Below are positions 3,096 to 53,733 of a stretch of DNA of 64,000 nt, piece after piece (position 1 is the first letter of the stretch; each line of letters opens with the position of its first letter). The notes under the pieces are model-generated. The model saw only the letters and a program-made list of their open reading frames with translations. It was not told the DNA's origin and did not search any database. The translations under genes were made by a program, and so were the position numbers. The DNA lies in the NCBI GenBank assembly GCA_038042445.1, contig JBBTED010000027.1, forward strand, positions 37,651 through 101,650. The letters run 5' to 3'. The DNA comes from Candidatus Firestoneibacteriota bacterium. GTDB lineage: Bacteria; Oederibacteriota; D2-FULL-39-29; JBBTED01.

Positions 3096-3110
3096 CTCCT
3101 TTTTTTATAT

Positions 3111-7208: not shown

Positions 7209-7264
7209 GGTAGTCGCAGGCTTTAGCCTGCGGTTCTTTCCGCAAGCTAAAGCTTGCGGCTACC
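7209..7264. repeat. Nested-palindrome repeat family B, copy 1 (ggtagtcgcaggctttagcctgcg ... ccgcaagctaaagcttgcggctacc)
   Basis: Two internally palindromic arms form an outer inverted repeat. Near-identical copies are at 21307-21373 and 33994-34064. Confidence 0.8.
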
Positions 7265-11917: not shown

Positions 11918-11973
11918 GTAGCTGCAAAGCAATAGCTTTGCTTTTTTTTTGCAGAGCTTCGCTCTGCCGCTAC
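11918..11973. repeat. Nested-palindrome repeat family A, short copy 1
   Basis: gtagctgcaaagcaatagctttgc ttttttttt gcagagcttcgctctgccgctac. Homologous cores are at 18543-18598, 23096-23151 and 30470-30525. Confidence 0.75.
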
Positions 11974-14809: not shown

Positions 14810-14989
14810 TAGGGCAAGGCTTTACCTTGCGAATGGCAAACCTAAAGAGCCTGTGTCAAAACCCTATTTTGTCATCCTGAGGCAGTAGCCGAAGGATCTC
14901 ATTTTTAAAGGGCTTTAAAGCGAGATTCTTCGGCTACTGCCTCAGAATGACACCTTTTTTGGTACAAGTTCTAAAGGTTTGCCCTACAA
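14810..14989. repeat. Nested palindrome of about 180 bp (outer gtagggcaa...ttgccctac, inner 30-bp arms gtcatcctgaggcagtagccgaaggatctc, central tttaaagggctttaaa)
   Basis: Arms read directly from the sequence with 2 mismatches in 30 bp. It lies between the upstream kinase gene and the 19-heme gene. The motifs tgtcatcctgag and gaaggatctc recur at 18462-18490. Confidence 0.75.
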
Positions 14990-17146: not shown

Positions 17147-18447
17147 AAGTATTTTTTTAATAATAATACTGCATTTACACCTGAAAATCCAGAGGAATTT
17201 TGCATTGCAATATTTACTTCTTTTTTTCTTGCTTTATTTGGCACATAATCCAAATCACATTCTGGGTCAGGATATTCATAATTTATAGTTGGTGGAATAA
17301 TATTATCTTCTATTATAAGACAATTTGTTATAGTCTGAAAAGCGCCTGCTGGTCCTAAAGAATGGCCTATCATTGATTTTAAACCACTTATTGGCACTTT
17401 ATATGCATATTCTCCAAATGCTTTTTTAATAGCAAGTGTTTCTGTTTTTTCATTTAATTGTGTAGAACTTCCATGTGCCTGTATATAATCAACATTTTCA
17501 GGTTTAATATTTGCATTTTTCATTGCTATTTTCATTGCTCTTGCTGATTGCACCCCATCTGGAGCAGGAGCTGTCATATGATACGCATTACAAGTAGTTC
17601 CATAACCAATAACTTCAGCATATATATGTGCATTTCTTTTTATAGCATGTTCTAATTCTTCCATAATAACTATACCTGAGCCTTCTCCCATAACAAATCC
17701 ATCTCTTTCTTTATCAAAAGGTCTTGAAGCTTTTTCCGGCTCATTATTTCTCGTAGACAATGCTTTTATTGCGCAAAATGAATACATTGTTAAAGGAGCA
17801 ATTGGAGCCTCTGTTCCACCTGCAAAAATAATATCTGCAATTCCTTGTTGTATAGATGTATATGCATTACCTATAGCTACTGTTCCTGCTGTGCATCCTG
17901 TTGATATTACATTGTTATATCCAACTATGCCTAAGTCTATTGAAATCTGGCCAACTGAAGCGCAACAAAATACTGCAATCGTAGTAAAAGTGCTTACTCC
18001 TCTTAAACCATTCAATCTATAGTTTGTAAATTGTTTCTCTGCAAAATCCATTCCGCTTACTGCAATACCAATAACTAACCCAATTCTTTCAGGATCTTCG
18101 TTTTTTATATTTAATTTTGCATCTATTAAAGCCAATTTAGCAGCACCCATAGCATATTGTGTAGATAAATCAGTTCTTCTAATTTGCTTTGGATCCATAT
18201 ATTTTTTGGGATCAAAATTATCTATTTCAGCAGCTATTTGCGAAGGATGTTGGGAAGCATCAAATCTCGTAATTTTGCGTGTCCAAGATTTACCTGCTAT
18301 TGTATTTTCCCAGAATTCCTGTTTTCCTATACCACTTGGAGCAACAACTCCAAGCCCTGTTATAACAACTCGTCTTTTATTTTCTTTAGTATCATTCATT
18401 TTATAATAAATTAAGTCGTTCTGATTCGCCTGTAACAAATTAGCCAA
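17143..18447 (-). CDS. Beta-ketoacyl-ACP synthase (KAS II / FabF-like)
   Basis: RRVVITGLGVVAPSGIG N-terminus. The active-site Cys region is CASVGQISIDLGIVGY and the His motifs are HGSSTQ and GHSLG. The true start may be the internal MNDTKENKRRVV (18399). The stop overlaps the kinase start (ATGA). Confidence 0.8.
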   Translation of the reverse strand: MANLLQANQNDLIYYKMNDTKENKRRVVITGLGVVAPSGIGKQEFWENTIAGKSWTRKITRFDASQHPSQIAAEIDNFDPKKYMDPKQIRRTDLSTQYAMGAAKLALIDAKLNIKNEDPERIGLVIGIAVSGMDFAEKQFTNYRLNGLRGVSTFTTIAVFCCASVGQISIDLGIVGYNNVISTGCTAGTVAIGNAYTSIQQGIADIIFAGGTEAPIAPLTMYSFCAIKALSTRNNEPEKASRPFDKERDGFVMGEGSGIVIMEELEHAIKRNAHIYAEVIGYGTTCNAYHMTAPAPDGVQSARAMKIAMKNANIKPENVDYIQAHGSSTQLNEKTETLAIKKAFGEYAYKVPISGLKSMIGHSLGPAGAFQTITNCLIIEDNIIPPTINYEYPDPECDLDYVPNKARKKEVNIAMQNSSGFSGVNAVLLLKKYL

Positions 18448-18454
18448 AATAAAT

Positions 18455-18650
18455 TTCGCTACGCAATAATTGTCATCCTGAGCGTTAGTGAAGGATCTCG
18501 TCTTGTAACAGATTAGCCATTCTAAAAATACACATTATTATTGTAGCTGCAGAGCAAAGCTCTGCTAAAAAACAGCAAAGCTTTCGCTTTGCGGCTACAT
18601 AAACCATACAAAATCCATTAAATCTTAGAATGGCCAACCTATTACCTCGT
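18455..18650. mobile_element. Composite MITE-like element: family A core (18543-18598) nested inside outer inverted repeats gtaacagattagccattctaa / ttagaatggccaacctattac, plus a fragment of the 14860 palindrome
   Basis: Outer TIR is 18506-18526 versus 18626-18646. The inner core is gtagctgcagagcaaagctctgc...gcaaagctttcgctttgcggctac. Near-identical composites are at 23046-23197 and 30423-30563 (the latter inverted). Confidence 0.7.
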
Positions 18651-18722
18651 CTTTATATAGATTCTTTATTTCATTCAGAGTGACAAAAAAGGTTGTTGAA
18701 AAACTTCCACTCCATTTGCATC

Positions 18723-19307
18723 TTACACATCTTTAACACCAGTTTTAAATATTGGAATAGGGAAAAATGCCCATACTTCTTTTTTGTATTTTAGATATTC
18801 TTCACCAAATTTTTTAATTAGTGCTTTTTCCTCAAAAATAAATCTTAAAATAATAAGTGGAACAAATGTAATTACAATCAAAAAAAATGAATAATAAGCA
18901 TTTGCTATTAAAGGTAGACCCAAAATTTCACAAAATAAAAACAAATAATGTGGATGCCTCATATATTTATAAGGACCTTTTTTAATTAAAGGATGGACAT
19001 CTCTTATTTCTATTTCTACAGTCCAGTATTTATCTAAAGTCTTTATTGCCCAAATAGAAAGCATCCAACCCAGAATATACAAAACAAAAGCAATACCAGA
19101 AATATAATAATTTATATTTCTTTCAATAATAAAAAATTCTATAGGCGAAACAAAAATTGGTAATATATAAAAAATATATATTGATTTAGTTATCCATTGA
19201 AATGAAATTTCCCCTTCTATTTTTTTGATTTTATGTATTTTAGAAGTAATAAAGAACTTATTTATAAATACAAGAATTGCGAAAATTAAATAAATATTTT
19301 CAAACAT
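18723..19307 (-). CDS. ICMT/PEMT-family membrane methyltransferase (isoprenylcysteine carboxyl / phospholipid methyltransferase-like)
   Basis: GPYKYMRHPHYLFLF...FEEKALIKKFGEEYLKYKKEV is the C-terminal SAM-binding signature of PF04191/PF04140. It has five TM helices. Confidence 0.65.
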   Translation of the reverse strand: MFENIYLIFAILVFINKFFITSKIHKIKKIEGEISFQWITKSIYIFYILPIFVSPIEFFIIERNINYYISGIAFVLYILGWMLSIWAIKTLDKYWTVEIEIRDVHPLIKKGPYKYMRHPHYLFLFCEILGLPLIANAYYSFFLIVITFVPLIILRFIFEEKALIKKFGEEYLKYKKEVWAFFPIPIFKTGVKDV

Positions 19308-19316
19308 TTAGTTTAT

Positions 19317-20684
19317 TTATTTTGGAGCTTTTGCCTTTGGATAAGAATAAGCTACATAATGCGAAGATAAATTTGCTATTATAGGAAATATTCTCTCATT
19401 TAACCTCACATTATTTTCATTCCAATTATTATACAATTTCATAAGCCTGTTAAAAACAGTATTTAATTCAAATAGTTCCTGAAAAGCCCAGCAATAACCA
19501 TTTTCCAAATCCTTTTCAGACATATTTTTTGGTTTATAACATACATGACAACAATCAAAATATGCCCAACTTTTATTTAATATTCTTTTTTCTTTTTCAA
19601 GTTTAAAAAATAATTGTGTTCCAGGCAAAGGTGTAAGAATATTTACAAAACAATTGCCAATACCAGAATCTTTTATAAAATTAACTGTTCTTTCAAATAC
19701 ATTTATATCATCATCATCAAACCCAAATATAAATGAACCAAGAATAATAATACCTTTTGATTGAATTTTTCCTATTGCTTTATAATATAAATCAACTTTG
19801 TATTGATTGCCTTTATGAACTTCTGCTAAATTTTTTTGGTTAATTGATTCAAACCCTATTAAAATACTTAAACAACCACTTGCTACTAATAAATCAAGCA
19901 ATTCATCATCTTCATATATCTCAATGGTTGCCTGTATTGTATAAGGTGTTTTAAGTGGTATCATTGCTTTTAAAAGTTCTTTTGCTCTTTTTTTATCAAC
20001 TAAAAAATTATCATCACAAAAGAAAATCAATTTTTTATCAATTGAATTTACAAATTCTATTTCTTTTATTACTTTTTCAACTGATTTACATCTGTATTTT
20101 TTACCAAAATATGTCTGAACAGAACAAAATTCGCAATTATAAGGACATCCGCGTGTTGTTTGAAGTATATGAAAATTATATTTTTTATTATTTAATAAAT
20201 CGTATCTGGGAATAGGAGATAAATTTATATCAGGTTTTTCAGGAGATTCGTATATTTTTTTTAGATTATTATTTTTAAAATCTTCTATTACCTGCTTCCA
20301 TATATTTTCTGCTTCTCCTTTTACAATAGTATCTGCATGTAAAAGCCCTTCTTCTGGAAGCATAGAAGTATGAATTCCACCAATTACAACTTGGACATTT
20401 CTTTTTCTGAATTCATCAGCAATTTCATAGGCACGAGTAGCCAAAGATGTATTGGCACTTATTCCAACTAAATCAACTTTTTCATCAAAGTTAATATCCT
20501 CTATGTTTTCATCTTTGATAATTATATTTACATCTTCTGGTGTAAGCGCTGCTATAACAGGTATTGAAGCTATCATAGCACTGTATTTTTTTACTCCAAA
20601 AACAATTGATTGAAATTGTCCTCCCCAGTTTTCTAATTCTGTATCAGCAGTTTTTCGTTTGGGAACAATCAGCTTTAAAATCAC
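19317..20684 (-). CDS. B12-binding (cobalamin) radical SAM protein
   Basis: The N-terminal B12-binding-like domain is followed by TTRGCPYNCEFCSV (CxxxCxxC radical SAM cluster). Confidence 0.8.
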   Translation of the reverse strand: MILKLIVPKRKTADTELENWGGQFQSIVFGVKKYSAMIASIPVIAALTPEDVNIIIKDENIEDINFDEKVDLVGISANTSLATRAYEIADEFRKRNVQVVIGGIHTSMLPEEGLLHADTIVKGEAENIWKQVIEDFKNNNLKKIYESPEKPDINLSPIPRYDLLNNKKYNFHILQTTRGCPYNCEFCSVQTYFGKKYRCKSVEKVIKEIEFVNSIDKKLIFFCDDNFLVDKKRAKELLKAMIPLKTPYTIQATIEIYEDDELLDLLVASGCLSILIGFESINQKNLAEVHKGNQYKVDLYYKAIGKIQSKGIIILGSFIFGFDDDDINVFERTVNFIKDSGIGNCFVNILTPLPGTQLFFKLEKEKRILNKSWAYFDCCHVCYKPKNMSEKDLENGYCWAFQELFELNTVFNRLMKLYNNWNENNVRLNERIFPIIANLSSHYVAYSYPKAKAPK

Positions 20685-21274
20685 TCTACATCCTTTCTTG
20701 CTATTGCAATTTTAGGAAAAAATCTATTCACCTCTTGTTTATAACTTATATATTTTTCTTTTAATGTTTCAAGCATTGCTTTTTCTTCTATGATTGAACG
20801 TAAAATAATTATTGGAAAATATGTAATTAAAAATATAGTGAGAAAATAATAGGAATTTGGAATCAAAGTAATTCCTAATACTTCAAGTAAGTGAAAAACA
20901 TTATTTGGGTGTCTCATATATTTATATGGACCATTTTTTATTAACTCGTGATTATCTCGTATTTCAATATCCACACTCCAGTATTTCCCAAGCGAATTAA
21001 ATGCCCACTGCCTTCCAAAAAGACCTATAGAATATAGCATAATTCCTGCACAACTTACAAACAAATTCATATTTCTTTTTGCAACAAAATATTCTATAAA
21101 ACTACCAAAAAGTATAATAAGGTAGACATAAAATATATATTTGGATGTCCATTTAGCAATAACCTTGCCTTTGAGTTTTTCGGATTTCAAAGTTTTTTTT
21201 CTGATTGTGGACCTTATATGAAATGTAACTGCAAAAAATATAATATAAAATATTGTGAAATAAATGTTATTCAT
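20681..21274 (-). CDS. Second ICMT/PEMT-family membrane methyltransferase paralog
   Basis: GPYKYMRHPNNVFHLLEVLG...IEEKAMLETLKEKYISYKQEV. It is overlapped by the rSAM start (4-nt overlap). Confidence 0.65.
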   Translation of the reverse strand: MNNIYFTIFYIIFFAVTFHIRSTIRKKTLKSEKLKGKVIAKWTSKYIFYVYLIILFGSFIEYFVAKRNMNLFVSCAGIMLYSIGLFGRQWAFNSLGKYWSVDIEIRDNHELIKNGPYKYMRHPNNVFHLLEVLGITLIPNSYYFLTIFLITYFPIIILRSIIEEKAMLETLKEKYISYKQEVNRFFPKIAIARKDVE

Positions 21275-21306
21275 TATTTTTAATAGTACTCAATCTATGT
21301 CATAAT

Positions 21307-21373
21307 GGTAGCCGCAGGCTTTAGCCTGCGAAAAAATTGTAAAAAATACCGCAAGCTAAAGCTTGCGACTACC
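21307..21373. repeat. Nested-palindrome repeat family B, copy 2
   Basis: ggtagccgcaggctttagcctgcg aaaaaattgtaaaaaata ccgcaagctaaagcttgcgactacc. Confidence 0.8.
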
Positions 21374-21412
21374 ACTACAGAGAAAATCGCAAAAAACGAA
21401 TTATGACACAGT

Positions 21413-21871
21413 CTAAATGACTCCTTCCAATTTGTTCTTTAAACCAAGCAAAACATTTCTTGTAAGCTTGTCAATTGCGGGTTTTGCTATGAATTTGGAT
21501 AAAATCCAGCCTAAAACAGGTGGATTTAAGCTTAATCTGTGTGTTATTGTTAATTTCGTGCCTTCAGGAACTTCTTCAAATAGCCACTCGATTTTCATTC
21601 CTTTTAATCTGCCTTCAATTTGTTCAAATTCTATTGTTTTATTGATATTAAATTTTACTTTTGACTTCCACTTCATTATTTTACCTTTTATTTCTGCAAC
21701 TCTTTCAACAATCATTCCACCATCTTCTGTTTTTATAAGCTTTGATGGTTTATACCCCGGTATATAGGTATGAGAGTTTTCAATATCCTGTGCAATTTTA
21801 TATACTTCAGGTAAATTTCTTTTTATTATAATTGTATCTTTTGTAATCATATTATTGCTACCACTCTGCAC
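21413..21871 (-). CDS. SRPBCC-family (polyketide cyclase/dehydrase-like, START fold) protein
   Basis: Size and sequence pattern of polyketide_cyc2. It overlaps the downstream cyclase ORF at the N-terminus, so the true start may be the internal MITKD. Confidence 0.5.
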   Translation of the reverse strand: MQSGSNNMITKDTIIIKRNLPEVYKIAQDIENSHTYIPGYKPSKLIKTEDGGMIVERVAEIKGKIMKWKSKVKFNINKTIEFEQIEGRLKGMKIEWLFEEVPEGTKLTITHRLSLNPPVLGWILSKFIAKPAIDKLTRNVLLGLKNKLEGVI

Positions 21872-22614
21872 CAGCCGGCACTTGCTTTTTCAATTTTAAC
21901 AGGAAAACAAATTATTTTAAAGCCGAAAGGTTTGGGAATCTTATCCAAATTAGCAAGTTTTTCTATATGACAGTATTCAATTTTTTTCCCAACAAAATGT
22001 GCAGGAAATATAAAAGTATTATCTTTGGTTTTAAGAAAATCCTGCAACATATTAATTGCAGGTCTGTCAAAACCCCATGCATCTATCCCAAGTATTTTAA
22101 CACCTTGTTTTAAAATATATTCTGTCCCTTCGGCACTCATTCCAGAATGTGCTGAAAAATAATTATCTTTTTCAAAATATTTGTCTGCACCTGTCATTAT
22201 CAATACAATATCATAGGGCTTTATTTTATAGTTTATTTTATCTAATGCTTTTTGCACATCTATCTGCAAAATTGCATCACCTTGTTGTTTATGCCTAAAA
22301 TCAAGAAGGACACCATCATTATAACACCATTCTAAAGGAATCTCATCAACTGTTATTGCTTTTTTACCATTAATCTGCGAAGTAAAATGCCAAGGAGCAT
22401 CAAGATGTGTTCCTGAATGTGTATCTAATATTATTTCTTCATTTGCAAGACCTCTACCATCAGGAAAATCTTTTTCAGTTATTTGAGTTTTAAAAATATT
22501 ACTCGCAGCAGCACTAAGATTTTTTGCACCCTCTATATGATTAAAATATTTTATTTTGGGTGACTCAGGCTCCGGTGTATTATTTTTAATAGGTAAACTC
22601 AAGTCAATAAGCAT
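21847..22614 (-). CDS. Cyclase-family protein (PF04199, arylformamidase/kynurenine formamidase-like)
   Basis: The HSGTHLDAPWHF motif (HxGTHxDxPxH) is characteristic of the putative cyclase family. Confidence 0.7.
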   Translation of the reverse strand: MLIDLSLPIKNNTPEPESPKIKYFNHIEGAKNLSAAASNIFKTQITEKDFPDGRGLANEEIILDTHSGTHLDAPWHFTSQINGKKAITVDEIPLEWCYNDGVLLDFRHKQQGDAILQIDVQKALDKINYKIKPYDIVLIMTGADKYFEKDNYFSAHSGMSAEGTEYILKQGVKILGIDAWGFDRPAINMLQDFLKTKDNTFIFPAHFVGKKIEYCHIEKLANLDKIPKPFGFKIICFPVKIEKASAGWCRVVAII

Positions 22615-22622
22615 TTTATTTT

Positions 22623-23027
22623 TTACAAATCTTTTTTATGAACCATAAATGGTTTTTGACCTACAAACTCACCATTTGCAAATATCCTGAATGCATATTT
22701 GCCTGGCTCATTAAAAACTATGCCGTGCAAATTAAATACTAATTCATAACTTGCCAGTTTATCAACTACATCAATTTCAGGTATTTCTGTCTTAGCAACA
22801 ACTATATCTGTATCAAAATTAACGAATTCTAAAGCAAATTTATATATTCCCAATGCATCAGTAAATTTTACAAACACACTCAAAGATGGATGTGCGCAGG
22901 GAAAAGAAGATGCTGAGATATTTTCAAATAATCCAATTAAACTCTTCTTATTTGTTCCAACTTCAGTAATTACTGTATCGCATATAAGCATTGCATTCAA
23001 ATGCGGTTTTAGATTTGAAGTATTCAT
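22623..23027 (-). CDS. Hypothetical protein
   Basis: Intact ORF in an operon-like arrangement. No recognisable motif. Confidence 0.4.
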   Translation of the reverse strand: MNTSNLKPHLNAMLICDTVITEVGTNKKSLIGLFENISASSFPCAHPSLSVFVKFTDALGIYKFALEFVNFDTDIVVAKTEIPEIDVVDKLASYELVFNLHGIVFNEPGKYAFRIFANGEFVGQKPFMVHKKDL

Positions 23028-23045
23028 ATTTTTACCTTCTCACTA

Positions 23046-23197
23046 CTGTTACATTTAAAGTAACATTAGCCATTCTAAGAATATACATTATTATTGTAGC
23101 TGCAGAGCAAAGCTCTGCTAAAAACCAGCAAAGCTTTCGCTTTGCGGCTACATAAACTATACAAAATCCATTAAATATTAGAATGGCTAACCTATTA
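23046..23197. mobile_element. Composite MITE-like element (family A core 23096-23151 plus outer ttagccattctaa / ttagaatggctaa TIR), copy 3
   Basis: Same architecture and over 90% identity to 18506-18646. Confidence 0.7.
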
Positions 23198-23203
23198 CCA
23201 TTT

Positions 23204-23243
23204 AAAAGACTTTGGTTCCCCGATTACTCGGGAATGACAGAAT
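23204..23243 (-). terminator. Stem-loop aaaagactttggttccccgattactcgggaatgacagaat downstream of ctpA
   Basis: Inverted repeat ttccccga/tcgggaa. A near-identical module is at 24765-24809. Confidence 0.45.
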
Positions 23244-23245
23244 TT

Positions 23246-24733
23246 TTACTTTACAACTGCTGGAGTTGATTTTTGTATTATCTCTGCACCTTTTAGCACA
23301 TCTATTGCTCGTAGGACAACAGGATCTTCAGACAAAGCAGTAACCTGCGCAGCATCGTCATTTTTCAATAAGCGAACAATTTCCATTTTAATAGAACGAC
23401 TTATAAAAGATTTACCTTTTGATGCATCATCATCACTAATAGTATATCCATTTGCCTTTGCAAAACTAATAAAATCCTGAATAATTTTTTCGCTAATTTT
23501 AATATCAACAGTAATATCTTTATGTTCTTCTATATATTTTTTTGCATAATGGATAAAATGTTCATAGTATTGTAATTTCCATACAGATTCCGGTATAAAT
23601 GGTTCATCTTCTACTAGAACATCCGGAGCTATTCCTTTTTCATGAATAAGTCTTCCACTTGGCGTATAATAATATGCAGTTGTAAGTTTTAACCCAGCTC
23701 CATTATTCATCGGATATATACTTTGCACAGAACCTTTGCCAAAAGTTTGGCTTCCTATTATTACTCCTCTTCCACTATCTTGTATTACACCTGTTACAAT
23801 TTCAGAAGCACTTGCACTACCTTTATTAACCAATACAACCAATGGCTCAGGATGAGGTGCAGCACCACTATCTGCATAATAATTTCTGTTTTGTTCTTTA
23901 ATTCTACCTTTTGTATAAACTATTAATTTACCATCACCAATAAATTTACAAGAAACATCAACTGCAGAAGAAAGTAATCCACCAGGATTACCACGTAAAT
24001 CTAAAATTAATGCTTTAACTTTTGAAGTTTCTAAATCCTTTAATGCTTTTTCCAAATCTGCACTTGTTTTCTCCATAAAACTTCGGACACGAACATATCC
24101 AATATCGCCATTTAAAACATAAGACTGAACACTTATCATTTTAATTGTTTCTCTTGTAACTATAATATCAAATGGTTCTTTAACACTTTCACGTAATATT
24201 GTTATAGTAACTTGAGTCCCTCTTGGACCTCTTAATTTTTTTACAGCCTCGTTTATTGTAATATCTTTTGTAGTTTCTCCATTTATTTTTATTATTTTAT
24301 CTCCTGATTTTACACCTGCTTTATACGCAGGAGTTCCTTCAATAGGAGATACTACAGTAAGCACATCACTTCGTATTGATATTTCTATTCCAAGTCCTTC
24401 AAAAGAACCACCTGTATCTGTTTGAAGCTCTTTATATTCCTCTGCATCCATAAACTGGCTATGTGGATCAAGTGTAGAAACCATACCCTTAATTGCTCCC
24501 TGAATTAATTTTTGCGAATCAGCTTTGTCAACATCTACATAAGATTGCTGTATTTGTGAAAGAACATCTACAAACGGAACCATATCCTGATATGTCTTTT
24601 CTATAATTTCTCTTGGTTTATCCTGACCAATTGCACCAATTGAAAATCCAACCAGAATAGCTAATATCCCTATACCACTCACTTTGTTCGGGTATAGGGC
24701 ATGCCCTATTACTTTTAATATTCTTTTATACAT
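23246..24733 (-). CDS. ctpA: Carboxyl-terminal processing protease (S41, Ctp) with PDZ domain
   Basis: The PDZ region is followed by LILDLRGNPGGLLSSAV and the catalytic Ser/Lys region of S41. N-terminal TM anchor. Confidence 0.85.
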   Translation of the reverse strand: MYKRILKVIGHALYPNKVSGIGILAILVGFSIGAIGQDKPREIIEKTYQDMVPFVDVLSQIQQSYVDVDKADSQKLIQGAIKGMVSTLDPHSQFMDAEEYKELQTDTGGSFEGLGIEISIRSDVLTVVSPIEGTPAYKAGVKSGDKIIKINGETTKDITINEAVKKLRGPRGTQVTITILRESVKEPFDIIVTRETIKMISVQSYVLNGDIGYVRVRSFMEKTSADLEKALKDLETSKVKALILDLRGNPGGLLSSAVDVSCKFIGDGKLIVYTKGRIKEQNRNYYADSGAAPHPEPLVVLVNKGSASASEIVTGVIQDSGRGVIIGSQTFGKGSVQSIYPMNNGAGLKLTTAYYYTPSGRLIHEKGIAPDVLVEDEPFIPESVWKLQYYEHFIHYAKKYIEEHKDITVDIKISEKIIQDFISFAKANGYTISDDDASKGKSFISRSIKMEIVRLLKNDDAAQVTALSEDPVVLRAIDVLKGAEIIQKSTPAVVK

Positions 24734-24764
24734 AAATTTCCTCCCTAATTAAACCTGTTGCATT

Positions 24765-24809
24765 TAAAAGACTCTGGATTCCCGATAGAAACATTCGGGA
24801 ATGACAAAA
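24765..24809 (-). terminator. Stem-loop aaaagactctggattcccgatagaaacattcgggaatgacaaaat downstream of the M23 gene
   Basis: Inverted repeat ttcccga/tcgggaa with the same flanks as the 23204 copy. Confidence 0.45.
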
Positions 24810-24818
24810 TACTATTTA

Positions 24819-26006
24819 TTATTTGTTTTTTAACCACTTAAGTGGATCCAATGGAGTTCCTTGTTTTCTTATTTCAAAATATAATGCAGCTCCATATAAC
24901 GAACTTGTATCACCTACTAAACCTATGCTTTTTCCAATTTCCACTCTTTCTCCAAGTGACACAGTTATTTCTGAAAGATGCCCGTAAATTGTATAATAAT
25001 TTGCTCCATGGTCTAAGATAATCATTTTCCCATATCCCTTAAACCAATCAGCATATATTACTACACCTGTACTTACTGTATCTACTGATTGACCAATAGA
25101 AGACGATATTTCTATACCTTTATTAAAAACACTTATATTAAATTTTTTATGCTTTTGCGAGCCAAAATTAGAAACAACCTTTCCCTTAACAGGCCACATA
25201 AGCTTACCTTTAGATTTTTCAAATCCGAGCTTAGCAAGGGTTTTTTGTTCTTCATAAGAACCAACTTGTGTTTCTAATTTCTTTACTAATGTTAATAATT
25301 CCTTACTTGCTTCCTCCAGTTCAGCTATTGCCTGCTGATATGCCTGTTTTTCTTTTCTTATTTTAACAAGCAAAACTTCTTTTCGTTTTTTCTCAACAGT
25401 TGCTTCGCTTTGCTTCTTTAAAGTTAATTCTTTAAGTATTTTATAACGTGCTTTTTTATATTCAAGTTCTCGTTTTTTATTCTCAATTTTTATTTTCTGA
25501 TCTTCAACTTCTTTTTTCAACTCAGCAGTATTTTTTAATACATCCTGCATAAACTTGTAACGATTTAAAAACTGACTGATAGTTTGTGAAGTTAAAAGTA
25601 TTTCCCACCAATAAAGTTTTCCATGTTTATAAAGAACCCTTAATCTCTGATGTAATTTTTTTCTAATTTTTGAAAGCTTATCATTTGCTTCTTGCAGTTC
25701 ATTTTCTGTTATTTTTATTTTTTCTTCTGTTACAGTTAATTCAAGATTATAAGTTGCTATTTGTTTTTCCAGAAAATCTATCTGCTTTTCTACTTTTTCT
25801 AATTCACCCAGTATTCCTTTTTCTTTTATTTCTGCTTGCTGTTTTTTTGTTTCTTCAGCTTCTATTTTTTTTTCAAGCTTATTGAAATTTTCTTTGGTTT
25901 TTTCTATTGACCCTTTATAATCATCTATTTTTTTATCAAGGTCAACAGCAAATACAAAAGGCACAGAAATAAAAATTGCAATTATTAAAGTTATTACATC
26001 CTTCAT
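24819..26006 (-). CDS. envC: Coiled-coil M23 peptidase / murein hydrolase activator (EnvC/NlpD-like)
   Basis: Long coiled-coil region followed by an M23 LytM domain (GVVIYADWFKGYGKMIILDHGANYYTIYGHLS). The start is placed at the internal MKDVITLIIAIF (26006), just after the ftsX stop. Confidence 0.75.
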   Translation of the reverse strand: MKDVITLIIAIFISVPFVFAVDLDKKIDDYKGSIEKTKENFNKLEKKIEAEETKKQQAEIKEKGILGELEKVEKQIDFLEKQIATYNLELTVTEEKIKITENELQEANDKLSKIRKKLHQRLRVLYKHGKLYWWEILLTSQTISQFLNRYKFMQDVLKNTAELKKEVEDQKIKIENKKRELEYKKARYKILKELTLKKQSEATVEKKRKEVLLVKIRKEKQAYQQAIAELEEASKELLTLVKKLETQVGSYEEQKTLAKLGFEKSKGKLMWPVKGKVVSNFGSQKHKKFNISVFNKGIEISSSIGQSVDTVSTGVVIYADWFKGYGKMIILDHGANYYTIYGHLSEITVSLGERVEIGKSIGLVGDTSSLYGAALYFEIRKQGTPLDPLKWLKNK

Positions 26007-26881
26007 GCCTTGAGGAATCTTCCTATTGCTAATGAACTTCCTAAAATCCCAAGACCTGTTCCAAATCCAAGTATTATCCATACTATGGTTATATTAAAAA
26101 CAAGTATTTTCATACCCAAAAAAGAATTGATTTCTTTTAATCCAAGTGAACTTGCAATAAATAAAATTACTATAGCAGCAATACCACCAATTAACCCACT
26201 TAACATACCTTCAATAATAAATGGCAATCTTATAAACCAATTTGTAGCACCTAAAAGCTTCATTGTTTTTATTTCTTCCCTGCGAGCATATAATGCAAGC
26301 CTTGTAGTATTTGCTACAATAAATACTGCAGATATAAATACCAATGCAGTAAGCACTAAAATTCCTGTTCTTGCTATTTGAGCAATATGTAAAATTTTTT
26401 CAACTTCATCTTTTAAATATTTAACTTCTTCTATTCCATAAACCTTTGAAAGTTCAGATGCTATTGCAGATAATTTGTTTGAATCACGATATTGAGGTTT
26501 TACTTTTAATTTAAAAGATGCTGGAAGTGGATTTGATTCTGCTGCATCAAAAAAACTCGCTAAAGCTTTATCTTTTTTAAATTCTTTAAGTGCAGCATCT
26601 TTTGACACAAATACATAAGACTCTATAGCTTCCATAGTTTTCATTTTGTCAATTATTGAGGTAATATCAATTTCATCTAAATCATCTTTTAAAAATACAA
26701 CTATTTCAACTTTCGATTCCAATGCATTCATAGTTTTATTGGCATTGAGGACAACCAACAAAAAAATACCTACTATAAGCAAAGTTATAAAAGCTGAACC
26801 AACACTTATAAGCTGTGCTTCGCTATGGCGTTTAAGATTTAATACTGCCTCATGAAATATGTAGATTAATTTATCAAACAT
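26003..26881 (-). CDS. ftsX: Cell division ABC transporter permease FtsX
   Basis: FtsX topology (TM, large periplasmic loop, three TM) and the conserved N-terminus (NLKRHSEAQLISVGSAFITLLIVG). Confidence 0.85.
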   Translation of the reverse strand: MFDKLIYIFHEAVLNLKRHSEAQLISVGSAFITLLIVGIFLLVVLNANKTMNALESKVEIVVFLKDDLDEIDITSIIDKMKTMEAIESYVFVSKDAALKEFKKDKALASFFDAAESNPLPASFKLKVKPQYRDSNKLSAIASELSKVYGIEEVKYLKDEVEKILHIAQIARTGILVLTALVFISAVFIVANTTRLALYARREEIKTMKLLGATNWFIRLPFIIEGMLSGLIGGIAAIVILFIASSLGLKEINSFLGMKILVFNITIVWIILGFGTGLGILGSSLAIGRFLKA

Positions 26882-27533
26882 TTGTTATTATTTGCCCGGC
26901 TTTCAACTCAATAACTCTTCTTCCTGATTTTCTTGCAATTTCTCTATCCTGTGTAATTACTACAACTGTTCTTTTATGCAAACTGTCGAAGCAAAAAAGT
27001 TGTAATAATTCCCATGCTGAAGCTACTTCTAAATGAGAAAACGGTTCATCAATAAGTAATACTTCTGGCTCTGTACTTAAAGCTCTGGCAAATGCCAGTT
27101 TTTGCTTTTCACCTGCTGAAAGCTCTTTTGGCAAAAGGGAATATTTGTTTTCAAAGCCAAAAAGACTTAAAATCCTTGTAATTTTTTCTTTTCTCTGGGA
27201 ATATGAAATACCAATAGCATGCAATACAAAACTTATGTTATCTTCAACTGTCCTATCAGGTAATAATTTCAAATCCTGAAATACTACTCCAAATTTACGT
27301 CGTATATAAGGAATTTCTTTGTCCGGCAAAGAATTTAAACTTGCACCACCAAACATTATAGTCCCGCCTGTAGGTGATTCGTCTTTAATTAAGAGTTTAA
27401 ATATTGTAGTTTTTCCTGCACCTGCAGGACCTGTAATAAAAACTTCTTCGCCTTGTTTTATTGTAAATGTTAAATCCCTTACTGCCTCTACACCATTTGG
27501 ATAAACCTTTGAAGTATGCAAAAATTCAATCAT
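26874..27533 (-). CDS. ftsE: Cell division ABC transporter ATP-binding protein FtsE
   Basis: Walker A (GPAGAGKTT), ABC signature (LSAGEKQKLAFARAL) and Walker B (LLIDEP). Confidence 0.9.
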   Translation of the reverse strand: MIEFLHTSKVYPNGVEAVRDLTFTIKQGEEVFITGPAGAGKTTIFKLLIKDESPTGGTIMFGGASLNSLPDKEIPYIRRKFGVVFQDLKLLPDRTVEDNISFVLHAIGISYSQRKEKITRILSLFGFENKYSLLPKELSAGEKQKLAFARALSTEPEVLLIDEPFSHLEVASAWELLQLFCFDSLHKRTVVVITQDREIARKSGRRVIELKAGQIITNV

Positions 27534-27651
27534 AACTTATTCTATATTACAAATGCGCATTTTGTCAAGTTTACAAAACTTATTTTGTATTGACAAAAAC
27601 AGGCGATGGGTATTAAATTGTTTTAAGAAAATAATTAGAAAGGAGATATTT

Positions 27652-28455
27652 ATGTTTCAGCCAAAATTAGGGGTTTCACTTCATACCATTATGCTTCCTC
27701 TTGTTCCAGAATCATTGGAAGAAATCAGTAAATCCAGTATTGCTACATTAGAAATTAGTCCAAAACTTTTTGCGACAAAAGAACAACAACATTTATTAAA
27801 ACAAATGTTGAGTAAAAATAAAATACGCGTAGCATCAATACATACATTGTTTGGAGGAATCTATGATTTTTCAATACTTGATGAAAATATGCATCAAAAT
27901 GCAATAGCACAATTTGATATCTCTCTTAAATTAGCTATTGAATTAAATGCACCACTTATTGTTCTTCACGCAAGCTCAGACACAGTTAAAACTGAAGAAC
28001 GACAAAACCGTCTAAAACAAGCAAAAAAAGGGCTAAAAAAAATTGAAGAACAATGTATTAAATTTAATAAGAAAATTGCTGTTGAAGTCCTTCCACGTAC
28101 TTGTTTAGGGAATACAATAGAAGAACTATTAAAACTCATAGAAGGTCTTGATGAACAAACCTTTGGTATATGTCTTGATACAAATCATCTGATGAGTGAT
28201 TACCAAGATTTACCAAATAAAGTTAGAATGTTAAATAAAAAACTTATGACTTTGCATCTTTCTGATTATGATGGAATTGATGAAAAACACCAAATTCCAG
28301 GCACAGGAGTTATCAACTGGAAATCATTTATGACTGCACTAAATAACATTGATTATAAAGGTCCATTTAATTATGAGTGTAAAATAGAAGGAGAAACAAT
28401 AAGCAGCAAAATAAAATCTTTAGAAACAAATTTTAACTGGATATGCAATCTTTAA
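27652..28455 (+). CDS. Sugar phosphate isomerase/epimerase (xylose isomerase-like TIM barrel)
   Basis: AP-endonuclease-2/XylA-like TIM barrel pattern. The start is placed at MFQPKLGV (27652), preceded by AGGAGA 5 nt upstream. The longer track ORF begins inside the ftsE divergent promoter region. Confidence 0.65.
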   Translation: MFQPKLGVSLHTIMLPLVPESLEEISKSSIATLEISPKLFATKEQQHLLKQMLSKNKIRVASIHTLFGGIYDFSILDENMHQNAIAQFDISLKLAIELNAPLIVLHASSDTVKTEERQNRLKQAKKGLKKIEEQCIKFNKKIAVEVLPRTCLGNTIEELLKLIEGLDEQTFGICLDTNHLMSDYQDLPNKVRMLNKKLMTLHLSDYDGIDEKHQIPGTGVINWKSFMTALNNIDYKGPFNYECKIEGETISSKIKSLETNFNWICNL

Positions 28456-28467
28456 AAATCTCCCCTA

Positions 28468-28494
28468 TCCCCTCTTTTACAAAGAGGGGGAAAT
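28468..28494. terminator. Bidirectional stem-loop between convergent genes (cccctcttttacaaagagggg)
   Basis: Perfect 8-bp G/C stem with T/A runs on both sides. Confidence 0.5.
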
Positions 28495-28519
28495 CATTAA
28501 AATTCCCGAAGAATCAAAT

Positions 28520-29101
28520 CTACTTCCTACCATAAATTTTTGCTTCAGTTATTATTTTTGTTACAGGTTCATCGAAAGGGAATACTGGTATTGAAGGTAA
28601 AATCTGGCAATCATAAGCAATAGCAATTTTTGGAATATGTTTTGAGGTTTTCTTAAAAAGATTGTCATAATATCCACCGCCATATCCTAATCTATTGCAT
28701 TGCGAATCAAAAGCAACACCTGGACTTACAACAAAATCTATTTCATTAGGTTTAACAATATGCAAATTTTCATCTTTTGGTTCCATTATTCCATAAGTAC
28801 CTTTAACAAGGTCAGTATCAACATTTTTAATTTCTGCTAATATTAATTCTTTTTTGTTTTTATCCACTTTTGGCAAAATAATTTTTTTTCCTGATTTTAA
28901 GGCACCTCTTATCATTTGTTCAGTCATAACTTCACTGCCATAAGTATAGAAAAACATAATTGTTTTCGCATTAACAAATTCAGGCAGAGCAAAAAGTTTG
29001 TTTTGAATTTCTGCACTTTTTGCAATGCGTTCTTTTTCAGATAAAGAATCGCGAAGTTTAATTATTTTTTTTCTAATTTCCTTTTTCAAATTCTGATTCA
29101 T
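28520..29101 (-). CDS. 5-formyltetrahydrofolate cyclo-ligase
   Basis: MNQNLKKEIRKKIIKLR... and the C-terminal GYGGGYYD motif typical of MTHFS/YgfA. Confidence 0.75.
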   Translation of the reverse strand: MNQNLKKEIRKKIIKLRDSLSEKERIAKSAEIQNKLFALPEFVNAKTIMFFYTYGSEVMTEQMIRGALKSGKKIILPKVDKNKKELILAEIKNVDTDLVKGTYGIMEPKDENLHIVKPNEIDFVVSPGVAFDSQCNRLGYGGGYYDNLFKKTSKHIPKIAIAYDCQILPSIPVFPFDEPVTKIITEAKIYGRK

Positions 29102-30371
29102 GTTTTTTAAGTTTCTCCAAATATTCTTTCATTTTTGACTCATATCCTCTATTTTGAGGTTCATAATATTTTCTTTTTTCCGGAATATATTGCTGTTTTA
29201 TATAACCTTCTTTATATGAATGTGGATATTTATATTCAATGCCATGCCCGAAATTTTTCGCACCTGAATAATTTGCATCTTTAAGATGTTTTGGAACTTG
29301 AAGTATCGGTTTTTTCTCTATATCATCTAATGCCTTATCTATTGCCACATATGCAGAATTGCTTTTTGGAGCACAGGCAATATAAATTGTTGCCTGTGCA
29401 AGTGGAATTCTTGCCTCAGGCATACCTATAACCTCAGAAACCTGTAAAGCAGCATTTGCAAGCATTAATGCTTGTGGGTCTGCCAAACCTACATCTTCCG
29501 CAGCGCATATTACAATTCTTCTTGCAACAAAACGTGGGTCTTCGCCACTATGCAACATTTTTGCAAGCCAGTAAATTGCTGCATCTGGATCTGAACCTCT
29601 CATACTCTTGATAAATGCCGAAATTGTATCATAATGCGAATCCTCTGAACTATCATAAATTATTGCTTTCTTTTGTATTGACTCTTCAGCAACTGCGAGT
29701 GTAAAATTTATTATTCCATTAGCATCTGGTAAAGTTGTTAGCACACCTATTTCCAAACCATTTAATGATTTTCTTGCATCTCCATTTGAAGAATTTATCA
29801 AAAACTCAAGTGCTTTATCTTCAATTTTAACTTTATAGTTACCCAACCCACGTTCTTTATCATCAAGAGCACGTATTAAAATAGTTTTTATATTCTCTGG
29901 TTTTAACGATTCAAACTGGAATATTTGAGAACGTGACAAAAGAGCAGAATTTATTGAAAAATATGGATTCTGTGTAGTTGCACCTATTAGAATAATTATA
30001 CCATTTTCAACATCAGGAAGAAGCGCATCCTGCTGAAGTTTGTTAAACCTATGTATCTCGTCAATAAATAAAATTGTACGTTGTTTTAGAAGATTTATCT
30101 GATTTTTTGCAGCATCTACAACTTTTCTTATATCAGAAACCCCAGCAGTAACTGCATTTAATTCTATAAAATGTGCAGATGTTTTATTTGCAATTACTCG
30201 TGCTAAAGCATTTTTCCCAGTTCCAGGGGGACCATATAATATAATAGAAGATAATCTATCTGATTCTATTGCCCTTCTAAAAAGTTTACCGGAACCAAGT
30301 ATATGTTCCTGTCCAACAAATTCAGAGATATCACGTGGACACAATCTTTTAGCAAGAGGTGTATTAACCAT
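29073..30371 (-). CDS. rarA: Replication-associated recombination protein A (AAA+ ATPase RarA/MgsA)
   Basis: GPPGTGKNALARVIA Walker A, ILFIDEIHRFNK Walker B/sensor, and the MgsA C-terminal helical domain. Confidence 0.85.
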   Translation of the reverse strand: MVNTPLAKRLCPRDISEFVGQEHILGSGKLFRRAIESDRLSSIILYGPPGTGKNALARVIANKTSAHFIELNAVTAGVSDIRKVVDAAKNQINLLKQRTILFIDEIHRFNKLQQDALLPDVENGIIILIGATTQNPYFSINSALLSRSQIFQFESLKPENIKTILIRALDDKERGLGNYKVKIEDKALEFLINSSNGDARKSLNGLEIGVLTTLPDANGIINFTLAVAEESIQKKAIIYDSSEDSHYDTISAFIKSMRGSDPDAAIYWLAKMLHSGEDPRFVARRIVICAAEDVGLADPQALMLANAALQVSEVIGMPEARIPLAQATIYIACAPKSNSAYVAIDKALDDIEKKPILQVPKHLKDANYSGAKNFGHGIEYKYPHSYKEGYIKQQYIPEKRKYYEPQNRGYESKMKEYLEKLKKHESEFEKGN

Positions 30372-30422
30372 ATTTCATTAATTAACATATATTAAAAAAC
30401 CCAAAATGTAAAATGAAAAATA

Positions 30423-30563
30423 ATAATAGGTTAGCCATTCTAAGATTTAATGGATTTTGTATGATTTATGTAGCCGCAAAGCGAAAGCTTTGCTGTTTTT
30501 TAGCAGAGCTTTGCTCTGCAGCTACAATAATAACGTCTATTTTTAGAATGGCTAATCTGTTAC
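30423..30563. mobile_element. Composite MITE-like element, copy 4 (inverted orientation; core 30470-30525)
   Basis: aataggttagccattctaag ... gtagccgcaaagcgaaagctttgctg ttttttag cagagctttgctctgcagctac ... ttagaatggctaatctgttac. Confidence 0.7.
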
Positions 30564-30591
30564 GAAAAATATGGATAAATTTTATGCCAAT

Positions 30592-53260: not shown

Positions 53261-53449
53261 ATAGCTCCCTAATTATTAACAATGGTAATAATTTTCTGTT
53301 TATTATTTGTATTGTAATAGATTAGCTATTTAAAGTAAATTCTTAATTACCTACAGCGCACAATTCAGACAGTAGACTACAGACTAAAATCTATTAGTCT
53401 AATGTCTATCGTCTTAAGTCTATTTTTACTTTATCACTGATATTTTGCC

Positions 53450-53570: not shown

Positions 53571-53647
53571 ATGAAAACTATTTAAAATAGTTTAGCCGTT
53601 GTAAAAACCGTTAAAAAAGATAATCAAAATAGCTATATAATGTTTAT

Positions 53648-53696
53648 GTAGTTGCCGATTCATCGGCAAAAAATCAGCTGATAAATCAGCAACTAC
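53648..53696. repeat. Palindromic repeat family E, copy 3 (inverted arm order)
   Basis: gtagttgccgattcatcggc aaaaaatca gctgataaatcagcaactac. Confidence 0.7.
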
Positions 53697-53733
53697 AAAT
53701 TAAAATATATTTAAAATACAAATACTTAAAAAT

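What the first reader, a model, noticed from the sequence alone, without database searches (positions are those of the whole stretch)
18455..30563. Three copies of a composite 150-200 bp MITE-like element built from a family A core inside a second inverted repeat
At 18455-18650, 23046-23197 and 30423-30563 (the last inverted) the family A double hairpin is nested within outer arms ...ttagccattctaa(g/a)a... / ...ttagaatggc(c/t)aa.... The 18455 copy additionally carries a fragment (tgtcatcctgagcgttagtgaaggatctcg) of the 14810 palindrome. The modular, mosaic structure implies that these elements recombine or insert into one another. The copies separate functional gene blocks: KAS from ICMT, a hypothetical gene from ctpA, and rarA from GH4.
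Basis: seen in the sequence. Interest (0 to 1): 0.55.

Follow-up and report, generated by a model that had tools for sequence, protein, structure and literature searches.

The report
MITE with a REP-doublet core
The three repeats are copies of a small non-coding jumping element (a MITE) whose centre is a pair of GTAG-tagged hairpins: a new family from poorly known groundwater bacteria, but an already described kind of element.

Summary
Three copies, 92-97% identical and about 140 bp long, lie at 18505-18645, 23060-23198 and 30423-30563 (the last inverted). Each has 21-bp terminal inverted repeats (GTAACAGATTAGCCATTCTAA / GTAATAGGTTAGCCATTCTAA) and a perfect 8-bp target-site duplication, so they are true MITEs. 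A fourth, diverged copy at 53584-53759 also has a perfect 8-bp duplication.

The "family A" core is a head-to-head pair of GTAG-tagged REP hairpins (REPIN-like). Eight or nine such pairs also occur alone in the window.

The "fragment of the 14810 palindrome" is not part of the element. The 18505 copy landed in the loop of a decayed copy of that palindrome, and deleting the MITE plus one duplication restores it.

The same arms flank other cores elsewhere: a different GTAG core in two WOR-3 MAGs, a non-GTAG core in a relative, and a 73-bp copy lacking nearly all of the core. One WOR-3 insertion site is unoccupied in a related genome.

GTAA termini plus 8-bp duplications point to an IS66-family (ISBst12-like) transposase acting in trans. 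No transposase or RAYT gene was found.

The closest precedent is QMITE2 of Coxiella. Verdict: a new member of a known kind, of moderate interest.

The parts
18505..18645 (+). MITE copy A (141 bp). Left TIR is GTAACAGATTAGCCATTCTAA; right TIR (reverse complement) is GTAATAGGTTGGCCATTCTAA.
   Evidence: nhmmer E = 4.7e-49; DNA fold z = -5.8, RNA fold z = -9.6
18497..18504 (.). Left target-site duplication of copy A (CTCGTCTT). The right copy is at 18646-18653.
   Evidence: chance of a perfect 8/8 match at fixed spacing is about 1e-4
18646..18653 (.). Right target-site duplication of copy A (CTCGTCTT).
18543..18598 (+). Core of copy A: a head-to-head GTAG REP doublet, GTAG-CT-GCAGAGC-AAA-GCTCTGC / spacer / GCAAAGC-TTTC-GCTTTGC-GG-CTAC.
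   Evidence: 49/56 identical to the solo doublet at 11918-11973
23060..23198 (+). MITE copy B (139 bp; 2-nt deletion in the left TIR). TSD CATTTAAA at 23052-23059 and 23199-23206. Core at 23096-23151.
30423..30563 (-). MITE copy C (141 bp, inverted). TSD GAAAAATA at 30415-30422 and 30564-30571. Core at 30470-30525.
53584..53759 (.). MITE copy D (176 bp), a diverged subfamily. Arms are AAAATAGTTTAGCCGTTGTAA / TTATAACGGCTAAGCTATTAC. Core is a GTAGTTGC-type doublet at 53648-53696. TSD AACTATTT at 53576-53583 and 53760-53767. Its right TIR supplies the last codons and the stop of the gene at 53734..55317(-).
   Evidence: nhmmer E = 2e-13; Pfam for the gene
18471..18504 (+).
18654..18695 (+). Right arm of the same interrupted family-B palindrome (…AGATTCTTTATTTCATTCAGAGTGACA).
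   Evidence: the reconstructed empty site folds as an imperfect palindrome, TGTCAT..TGAG..GAAGGATC / GATTCTTT..CAGAGTGACA
14870..14952 (+). Intact family-B palindrome, used as the reference for the interrupted copy.
   Evidence: (-33.1 kcal/mol as DNA)
11918..11973 (-). Solo GTAG REP doublet of the same subfamily as the MITE core, with no arms.
   Evidence: (E = 1.2e-14)
7210..7263 (.). Further solo doublets lie at 2024-2066, about 3108-3162, 21308-21372, 33995-34063, 37115-37167 and 42612-42662. Single units begin at 14809(+), 31991(-) and 43774(-).
18432..18452 (+). TIR-like remnant GTAACAAATTAGCCAAAATAA (18/21 match). Tentative.
   Evidence: not significant with nhmmer
53314..53334 (+). TIR-like remnant GTAATAGATTAGCTATTTAAA (18/21 match). 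Tentative.
   Evidence: nhmmer E about 2-6

Best explanation
These are copies of a non-autonomous DNA transposon (MITE), about 140 bp long.

Proposed mechanism: a transposase encoded elsewhere binds the 21-bp terminal inverted repeats, makes an 8-bp staggered cut in the target, and joins the element to it. Repair of the gaps leaves the 8-bp direct duplication seen at every copy.

GTAA termini, a 21-bp TIR and 8-bp duplications are the hallmark of the IS66 family. The ends resemble those of an ISBst12-group member, so an IS66-type DDE transposase acting in trans is the most likely driver. This step is inferred; no transposase was found.

The interior is a head-to-head pair of GTAG-tagged REP hairpins (REPIN-like). 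The junctions (TTTAT)GTAG…CTAC(AAT) are conserved between subfamilies and between phyla. The doublet is therefore most likely an old, integral part of the element, with its hairpin sequences diverged or replaced to match the REP subfamilies of each host.

The arms are the transposition module and the core is variable cargo. Copy A inserted into the loop of another palindromic repeat (a nested insertion).

Likely side effects on the host are inferred only. The core hairpin followed by a T-run could act as a terminator or an mRNA 3' stabiliser in the orientation of copies A and B. Copy D supplies new 3' codons to a gene.
For: Shown directly:
- Three copies are 92-97% identical, with 21-bp TIRs that are 18/21 complementary in copies A and C.
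- All four window copies have perfect 8-bp duplications immediately outside the TIRs. All four duplications differ in sequence. The chance of one such match is about 1e-4.
- The sister family in two WOR-3 MAGs has the identical TIR GTAATAGGTTAGCCATTCTAA. Of 11 hits (9 distinct sites), 5 have perfect 8-bp duplications and 4, at 3 sites, have 7/8.
- An orthologous spacer is occupied in JBBILZ01 (186 bp) and unoccupied in GCA_900174565.1 (24 bp).
- Removing copy A plus one duplication restores a family-B palindrome.
- There is no coding capacity: the only ORF has no Pfam hit. There is no Rfam match.
- The fold is strong: z = -5.8 as DNA and -9.6 as RNA.
- Independent assemblies break inside the copies.

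Core as a REP doublet:
- GTAG followed by a perfect hairpin occurs 28 times against 3.1 in shuffles, mostly as convergent pairs.
- GTAG has the highest hairpin rate of all tetramers, 8.3% against 1.1%.
- The definitions of GTAG REPs and HH dimers come from PMC3733652.

IS66 link:
- IS66 has IRs of 20-30 bp starting GTAAGCG, and 8-bp DRs (PMC11946415).
- ISDge4 (ISBst12 group) has the TIR GTAACTGCTCAGCA with an 8-bp DR (PMC12898284). By my own comparison it matches GTAACAGATTAGCC at 10 of 14 positions.
Against: - No transposase with matching ends was found in the window, in about 8 kb of extra sequence from the same genome, or in about 88 kb of WOR-3 loci. Only the loci returned by the contig look-ups carried Pfam calls.
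- The canonical IS66 end GTAAGCG is not matched beyond GTAA.
- No unoccupied site was found for the four window copies themselves. All samples of this organism carry them, and the nearest relatives are not syntenic.
- Only about 72 kb of this genome could be read, so the genome-wide copy number is unknown.
- The element in L034 and the copy in L012 lack recognisable duplications.
- Whether the core is ancestral or acquired is not settled.
Confidence: 0.8

Rival explanations
1. The arms are not transposon ends. They are a pre-existing palindromic target into which a mobile GTAG REP doublet, moved by a RAYT-type HUH enzyme, inserted repeatedly. This is how Di Nocera et al. read GTAG-15 dimers inside long palindromes in Anabaena variabilis.
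For: PMC3733652 reports GTAG and CGTC dimers regularly embedded in longer palindromes. Solo GTAG doublets are frequent in this window. Core subfamilies in the MITEs match solo subfamilies in the same genome.
Against: The duplications lie outside the arms, not at the core borders. HUH transposition leaves no duplication (established knowledge of IS200/IS605). No intact empty arm pair was found in the window; the only arm-like sequences outside the four copies are two tentative single-TIR remnants. The arm-core junctions are conserved across subfamilies. The arms also carry a non-GTAG core (L034). In the WOR-3 loci the only recurrent GTAG hairpin is the one inside the MITEs, plus 3 unrelated one-off matches at about chance level.
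Confidence: 0.07
2. It is a MITE, but it is mobilised by a transposase of another family that makes 8-bp duplications (ISL3, IS256, IS6, IS1595, ISAs1), not IS66.
For: An 8-bp duplication is not unique to IS66 (own knowledge of IS families). The canonical IS66 end GTAAGCG is matched only in its first four bases. No partner IS was found.
Against: To my knowledge the ends of those other families start with GG or CAGGG rather than GTAA. The TIR matches an ISBst12-group IS66 member, which has an experimentally seen 8-bp DR, at 10 of 14 positions.
Confidence: 0.12
3. It is a host-encoded structured regulatory element (a terminator or small RNA) that spread by duplication or gene conversion, not a transposon.
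For: The fold is very stable. A terminator-like hairpin plus T-run lies in the core, in sense with the flanking genes for copies A and B.
Against: Each copy has a different perfect 8-bp duplication. Copy C is in the opposite orientation to its neighbouring genes. There is no Rfam match. The same ends occur in two candidate phyla with unrelated neighbours. There is no flanking homology between copies.
Confidence: 0.03

Closest known systems
QMITE2 of Coxiella burnetii (Wachter et al. 2018, PMC5896051)
   Same: A 150-190 bp MITE with TIRs and unique flanking direct repeats of 7-11 nt. It contains a GTAG REP, is mostly intergenic or in 3' UTRs, and co-exists with small REP-like versions that lack TIRs and DRs. 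This is the same architecture as here: arms plus TSD around a GTAG REP core, with armless GTAG doublets elsewhere in the genome.
   Different: The host phylum differs. No sequence relationship was tested. Here the core is a head-to-head doublet and the duplication is uniformly 8 bp. The solo doublets here fall into several stem subfamilies and show no arm remnants, so they need not be truncated MITEs.
GTAG-tagged REPs, HH dimers and REPINs (Di Nocera et al. 2013, PMC3733652; Bertels & Rainey, PMC3337134)
   Same: An unpaired GTAG tag, 6-9 bp stems and short loops. Inverted pairs have GTAG on the outside and spacers of a few to tens of bp. The pairs are heterodimers with compensatory stem variants, and they are extragenic. 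Some dimers are embedded in longer palindromes.
   Different: No RAYT gene was seen. The hosts are candidate phyla not covered by that survey. Here the flanking palindrome is shown by its TSDs to be a transposon end rather than a target.
IS66 family, ISBst12 group (e.g. ISDge4)
   Same: TIRs of 20-30 bp that begin with GTAA, and an 8-bp target duplication. ISDge4's GTAACTGCTCAGCA and GTAACAGATTAGCC share 10 of 14 positions.
   Different: This element has no transposase, and the canonical GTAAGCG is absent. The link rests on end features only.
Classical bacterial MITEs (Correia, Nezha, Chunjie, ERIC)
   Same: Small, AT-rich, intergenic, with TIRs and DRs and a stable hairpin. Some copies overlap gene ends.
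   Different: TSD lengths differ (TA for Correia by my own knowledge; 9 bp for Chunjie), and there is no sequence relationship. Those elements are not described as built around a REP doublet.

Membership tests
Prokaryotic MITE | Small size (<500 bp) with no coding capacity | tested here: met
   139-176 bp. The only overlapping ORF (30413-30595, 60 aa) has no Pfam hit.
Prokaryotic MITE | Terminal inverted repeats (about 4-30 bp) | tested here: met
   21-bp TIRs: 18/21 complementary in copies A and C, 17/21 in D. The arm motif occurs 6 times against 0.37 expected.
Prokaryotic MITE | Flanking direct repeats (target-site duplication) that differ between copies | tested here: met
   4 of 4 window copies have perfect 8-bp TSDs: CTCGTCTT, CATTTAAA, GAAAAATA, AACTATTT. 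The chance is about 1e-4 each. In the WOR-3 copies, 5 are perfect and 4 hits (3 sites) are 7/8.
Prokaryotic MITE | Multiple dispersed copies in the genome | tested here: met
   3 + 1 copies in 64 kb at unrelated sites. Assemblies break inside the copies. The genome-wide count was not obtainable.
Prokaryotic MITE | Presence/absence polymorphism at orthologous sites | tested here: inconclusive
   Met for the sister family: L009 is filled and L038 empty. Not obtainable for the window copies: all samples are filled and the relatives are not syntenic.
Prokaryotic MITE | An autonomous IS with the same TIRs that supplies the transposase | not testable with these tools
   No such IS appeared among the hits to the TIR pattern or in the fetched loci. 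The whole genomes could not be read.
GTAG REP / REPIN | A GTAG tag at one end of a short palindrome (stem 6-13 bp) | tested here: met
   28 GTAG + perfect hairpin units against 3.1 in shuffles. The hairpin rate is 8.3% after GTAG against 1.1% after all tetramers.
GTAG REP / REPIN | Inverted doublets (HH dimers) with a short spacer | tested here: met
   10 convergent pairs were scored and 2 more were recognised by eye (3108-3162 and 53648-53696). They span 43-69 nt with GTAG…CTAC on the outside. Four are MITE cores.
GTAG REP / REPIN | An associated RAYT (Y1 HUH transposase) gene flanked by REPs | tested here: inconclusive
   No PF01797 hit among the 27 window ORFs scanned or in the called genes of L027 and L030. 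The remaining window ORFs were not scanned, and only about 72 kb of the genome was examined.
IS66-family derivative | TIR of 20-30 bp starting with GTAA(GCG) | tested here: inconclusive
   A 21-bp TIR starts GTAAC or GTAAT, so GTAA is met and GCG is not. It matches ISDge4's TIR at 10 of 14 positions.
IS66-family derivative | 8-bp target duplication | tested here: met
IS66-family derivative | Mobilised by a DDE_Tnp_IS66 transposase | not tested
   No candidate transposase was available.
QMITE2 (Coxiella) | Sequence homology to the QMITE2 consensus | not tested
   No QMITE2 sequence was at hand. Only the architecture was compared.

The most novel reading that the evidence does not exclude
The element is a true hybrid of two mobility systems. 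The DDE-type arms move the whole unit. The GTAG doublet core remains a substrate of a REP-processing HUH enzyme (RAYT) or of REP-to-REP gene conversion. Cores would then be swapped to match each host's REP subfamily while the arms stay almost unchanged. The unit, or its parent IS, has also crossed between candidate phyla (Firestonebacteria and WOR-3) in subsurface communities. MITEs of this kind could then be a vehicle that seeds REP/REPIN families in new genomes.
Probability: 0.15. Interest if true: 0.6.

Novelty: new member of a known kind. Interest (0 to 1): 0.4.

Why it matters
- It documents an active-looking MITE family, and abundant GTAG REP doublets, in candidate phyla (Firestonebacteria, WOR-3) where mobile elements are almost undescribed.
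- It shows with target-site duplications that a 'REP doublet inside a longer palindrome' can be a transposition unit rather than a REP inserted in a target. This bears on how similar structures in cyanobacteria and Halothiobacillus were read.
- The identical 21-nt end in two phyla with different cores gives a concrete handle on how MITE interiors are exchanged, and on horizontal spread of the parent IS.
- On the practical side, these repeats break metagenome assemblies of this organism.

Tried and rejected
- **TIR scan of viral contigs:** nothing.
- **TIR scan of JGI metagenome contigs:** 5 hits, none with MITE structure. They look like chance matches.
- **BLAST of the MITE against plasmids:** no match.
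- **Rfam:** only 6S RNA and a tRNA, nothing at the elements.
- **Search for a RAYT or transposase next to family A elements and in the plus-strand island at 41-44 kb:** only ordinary metabolic genes.
- **Empty sites for the window copies:**
  - Look-ups by exact protein gave only filled sites, or contigs that break inside the MITEs.
  - The closest relatives (ctpA 51-59% identical, rarA 70%) are not syntenic at these spacers.
- **Extending the genome:**
  - About 8 kb beyond the right end of the window: no elements.
  - About 0.3 kb beyond the left end.
  - One look-up failed because the protein start differed.
- **Putative decayed copies** at 14786-14850, 18432-18452 and 53314-53334: not significant with nhmmer, so they are reported only as tentative.
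- **tblastn of window proteins against the WOR-3 loci:** no shared genes, so relatedness had to be judged from SecD and RarA searches.
- **Covariation count on REP stems:** considered and dropped. Units were selected for perfect stems, so the count would be circular. The shuffle and tetramer controls were used instead.

Full report
**1. The observation**

Reading the three places and aligning them (A1) confirms a shared block of about 140 bp. The third copy is inverted.

- Pairwise identity is 92.3-96.5%.
- The core motif GTAGCTGCAGAGCAAAGCTCTGC occurs 4 times in the window against none in 100 shuffles.
- The arm TTAGCCATTCTAA occurs 6 times against 0.37 expected, and all six are in the three copies.
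- The stretch tgtcatcctgagcgttagtgaaggatctcg left of the first copy does match the left arm of the long palindrome at 14870-14952.

**2. Exact anatomy**

The ends are GTAACAGATTAGCCATTCTAA on the left and, read inward from the right, GTAATAGGTTAGCCATTCTAA. That is 21 bp with two fixed transition differences, which become G·U pairs in minus-strand RNA.

An 8-bp direct repeat lies immediately outside the ends of every copy:

| Copy | Element | Duplication | Left repeat | Right repeat |
|---|---|---|---|---|
| A | 18505-18645 | CTCGTCTT | 18497-18504 | 18646-18653 |
| B | 23060-23198 | CATTTAAA | 23052-23059 | 23199-23206 |
| C | 30423-30563 | GAAAAATA | 30415-30422 | 30564-30571 |

At fixed spacing, a perfect 8/8 match occurs at about 1 position in 10,000 in this window. 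These are therefore target-site duplications.

A tolerant search for the ends found a fourth, diverged copy at 53584-53759 (176 bp). Its arms are AAAATAGTTTAGCCGTTGTAA / TTATAACGGCTAAGCTATTAC, and it also has a perfect 8-bp duplication, AACTATTT (nhmmer E = 2e-13). Its right end supplies the last codons and the stop of the SBP/AraC-type gene at 53734..55317.

The elements have no coding capacity and no Rfam match. They fold far better than shuffles, with z = -5.8 as DNA and -9.6 as RNA.

**3. What 'family A' is**

Each half of the double hairpin is GTAG, then 0-2 nt, then a 6-8 bp stem and a 3-4 nt loop. The two halves face each other with GTAG…CTAC on the outside.

- A scan for GTAG followed by a perfect hairpin gives 28 units against 3.1 (maximum 7) in shuffles. 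Most are convergent pairs 43-69 nt across.
- GTAG is the tetramer most often followed by a hairpin: 8.3% against 1.1% overall.
- There are several stem subfamilies: GTAGYCGCARGC, GTAGCTGCARAGC, GTAGGGGCNNG and GTAGTTGCYGA.

This is the definition of GTAG-tagged REPs arranged as head-to-head dimers (PMC3733652), i.e. REPIN-like doublets.

Four of the doublets are MITE cores. Eight or nine are solo and show no arm remnants. The solo doublet at 11918-11973 belongs to the same subfamily as the core of copies A-C: 49/56 identical, with the same A-rich spacer.

No RAYT gene was seen in the window ORFs scanned or in the called genes of the neighbouring contigs.

**4. The 'fragment' at 18455**

Deleting copy A and one copy of its duplication joins TGTCATCCTGAGCGTTAGTGAAGGATCTCGTCTT to TATATAGATTCTTTATTTCATTCAGAGTGACA. 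The result is a decayed but recognisable copy of the 14870-14952 palindrome, with both arms present.

The MITE therefore landed in the loop of that palindrome. The fragment is the interrupted target, not cargo.

**5. Where else the arms occur**

An exact scan of one genome per species for TAAYAGRTTRGCCATTCTAA gave 11 hits, all in two WOR-3 MAGs. SecD relatives confirm that these MAGs are WOR-3.

- There, the identical 21-nt end flanks a 151-153 bp element with a different core. The core is still bounded by GTAGTTGC…GCAACTAC. Its right hairpin resembles that of window copy D, and its left hairpin is expanded.
- One 73-bp copy (L010) lacks nearly all of the core.
- Five copies have perfect 8-bp duplications and four hits, at three sites, have 7/8.
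- In these 88 kb the only recurrent GTAG hairpin is the one inside the MITEs.
- The spacer between the aminotransferase gene and pgpA holds the MITE in JBBILZ01 (186 bp). In a related genome, GCA_900174565.1 (SecD 89% identical), the spacer is 24 bp with no element. This shows presence/absence at an orthologous site, although the spacer is too diverged to show the single 8-mer.

The window's organism is a groundwater MAG named Candidatus Firestonebacteria (RarA 100% identical; Hainich well H52 contigs).

A relative with ctpA 56% identical (L034) carries a 111-bp element. It has the same ends (GTAACAGGTTAGCCATGCTAA / GTAACAGATTAGCACTTCTAA) but a non-GTAG core, and no recognisable duplication.

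Scans of JGI metagenomes, viral contigs and plasmids gave nothing real.

**6. Interpretation**

Shown:
- The unit bounded by the 21-bp ends is what moved, by a mechanism that duplicates 8 bp of target.
- The ends are the conserved module. The interior varies between subfamilies and hosts.
- Copy A is nested in another repeat.

Inferred:
- *The driver.* IS66-family elements have 20-30 bp IRs beginning GTAA(GCG) and make 8-bp duplications (PMC11946415). ISDge4 of the ISBst12 group ends in GTAACTGCTCAGCA with an 8-bp duplication (PMC12898284). It shares 10 of 14 positions with GTAACAGATTAGCC. I rate an IS66-type partner at roughly 0.5; no such gene was found.
- *The origin of the core.* The sequences next to the doublet, (TTTAT)GTAG…CTAC(AAT), are shared by all three subfamilies, while solo doublets have unrelated flanks. 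This favours an old, integral GTAG…CTAC core whose hairpins diverged or were converted toward the host's REP subfamilies, rather than repeated fresh insertions. The opposite direction (solos as truncated MITEs, as proposed for QMITE2) is not excluded for the 11918 copy.

Possible effects on the host are inferred only:
- The core contains GCAAAGCGAAAGCTTTGC followed by TGTTTTTTAG, which is terminator-like. It is in sense with the flanking genes in copies A and B and antisense in copy C.
- The 'separation of gene blocks' only reflects the survival of insertions in spacers.

**7. Comparison with what is known**

- The architecture is that of QMITE2 of Coxiella burnetii. QMITE2 is 150-190 bp with TIRs and unique 7-11 nt direct repeats, has a GTAG REP inside, and co-exists with REP-like small versions (PMC5896051).
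- GTAG and CGTC dimers embedded in longer palindromes were noted in Anabaena variabilis and Halothiobacillus, where they were read as insertions into target palindromes (PMC3733652). Here the duplications outside the arms argue for the composite being the transposition unit.
- General MITE criteria (PMC10969869, PMC3184786) are all met, except for an identified partner IS.

**8. Verdict**

- This is an undescribed MITE family, and REP population, in candidate phyla. It is a new member of a known kind.

The points of some interest are:
- the identical transposon end in two phyla with different cores;
- the REP-doublet interior;
- the nested insertion.

The limits are:
- only about 72 kb of the source genome could be read;
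- no transposase or RAYT was found;
- no empty allele was found for the window copies.

Noticed in passing
window 14809-14987: The intact family-B palindrome (14870-14952) itself appears to sit between two facing GTAGGGCAA-type units: GTAGGGCAAGGCTTTACCTTGC on the left and …AAGGTTTGCCCTAC on the right. Its own stem also contains GTAGCCGAAGGATCTC…GAGATTCTTCGGCTAC. This may be another nested GTAG structure.
   Followed up: partly
window 14786-14850: ATAACAGATT…GTAG hairpin…GAATGGCAAACCTAAAG resembles a heavily deleted MITE (left and right TIR remnants around a single REP). It is not significant with nhmmer.
   Followed up: partly
window 34124-34302 (-): A 6S RNA gene (Rfam 97.7 bits) lies directly next to a solo GTAG doublet at 33995-34063.
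   Followed up: no
window 53400-53580: The spacer upstream of the GH42-like gene holds several short repeats containing TTTTGCTA / CTTGCTATTTAG. These may be operator sites for the adjacent AraC-type regulator. A TIR-like remnant lies at 53314-53334.
   Followed up: no
window 53734-53767: MITE copy D supplies roughly the last 9 codons and the stop codon of the SBP/AraC-type gene at 53734..55317(-). In WOR-3 locus L009 the pgpA ORF likewise reads on into the MITE.
   Followed up: partly
window 3874-5319 (-) against L030 10930-12375: A 481-aa sensor kinase ORF in the window (also in Logan contig L031) is split into 233 + 237 aa in the ENA Hainich contig and in Logan contig L032. This is a strain difference or an assembly frameshift.
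   Followed up: no
window 56115-56606: A 27-nt repeat, TCACTTCCAGTATTCCTTTCAGTCTCA, occurs three times (two copies identical) inside the dnaX-like gene at 55907..57763(-). It is an internal coding repeat.
   Followed up: no
window 11709-11887 and 14563-14741: A 179-nt direct repeat (83% identical) reflects paralogous N-terminal regions of two neighbouring multihaem cytochrome / cytochrome b genes.
   Followed up: no
L034 11745-11855: A 111-bp element with the same TIRs but a non-GTAG core (TTGTCACTTTGAGGCAC…CCGAAGAGTCTCTGTAAGAGAC). The core faintly recalls family B. Like window copy B, it lies downstream of ctpA, but with different neighbours and no TSD.
   Followed up: partly
window 41300-43800: The only plus-strand gene island (cysteine desulfurase-like, NifU and DsrE-like genes), with reversed GC skew. 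It is bounded or interrupted by GTAG units at 42612-42662 and 43774.
   Followed up: no
L007 3897 / L008 4108: A GTAG hairpin, GTAGCGTCCATTATTAAATGGAC, lies 40 nt outside the MITE at an orthologous filled site shared by both WOR-3 MAGs.
   Followed up: no
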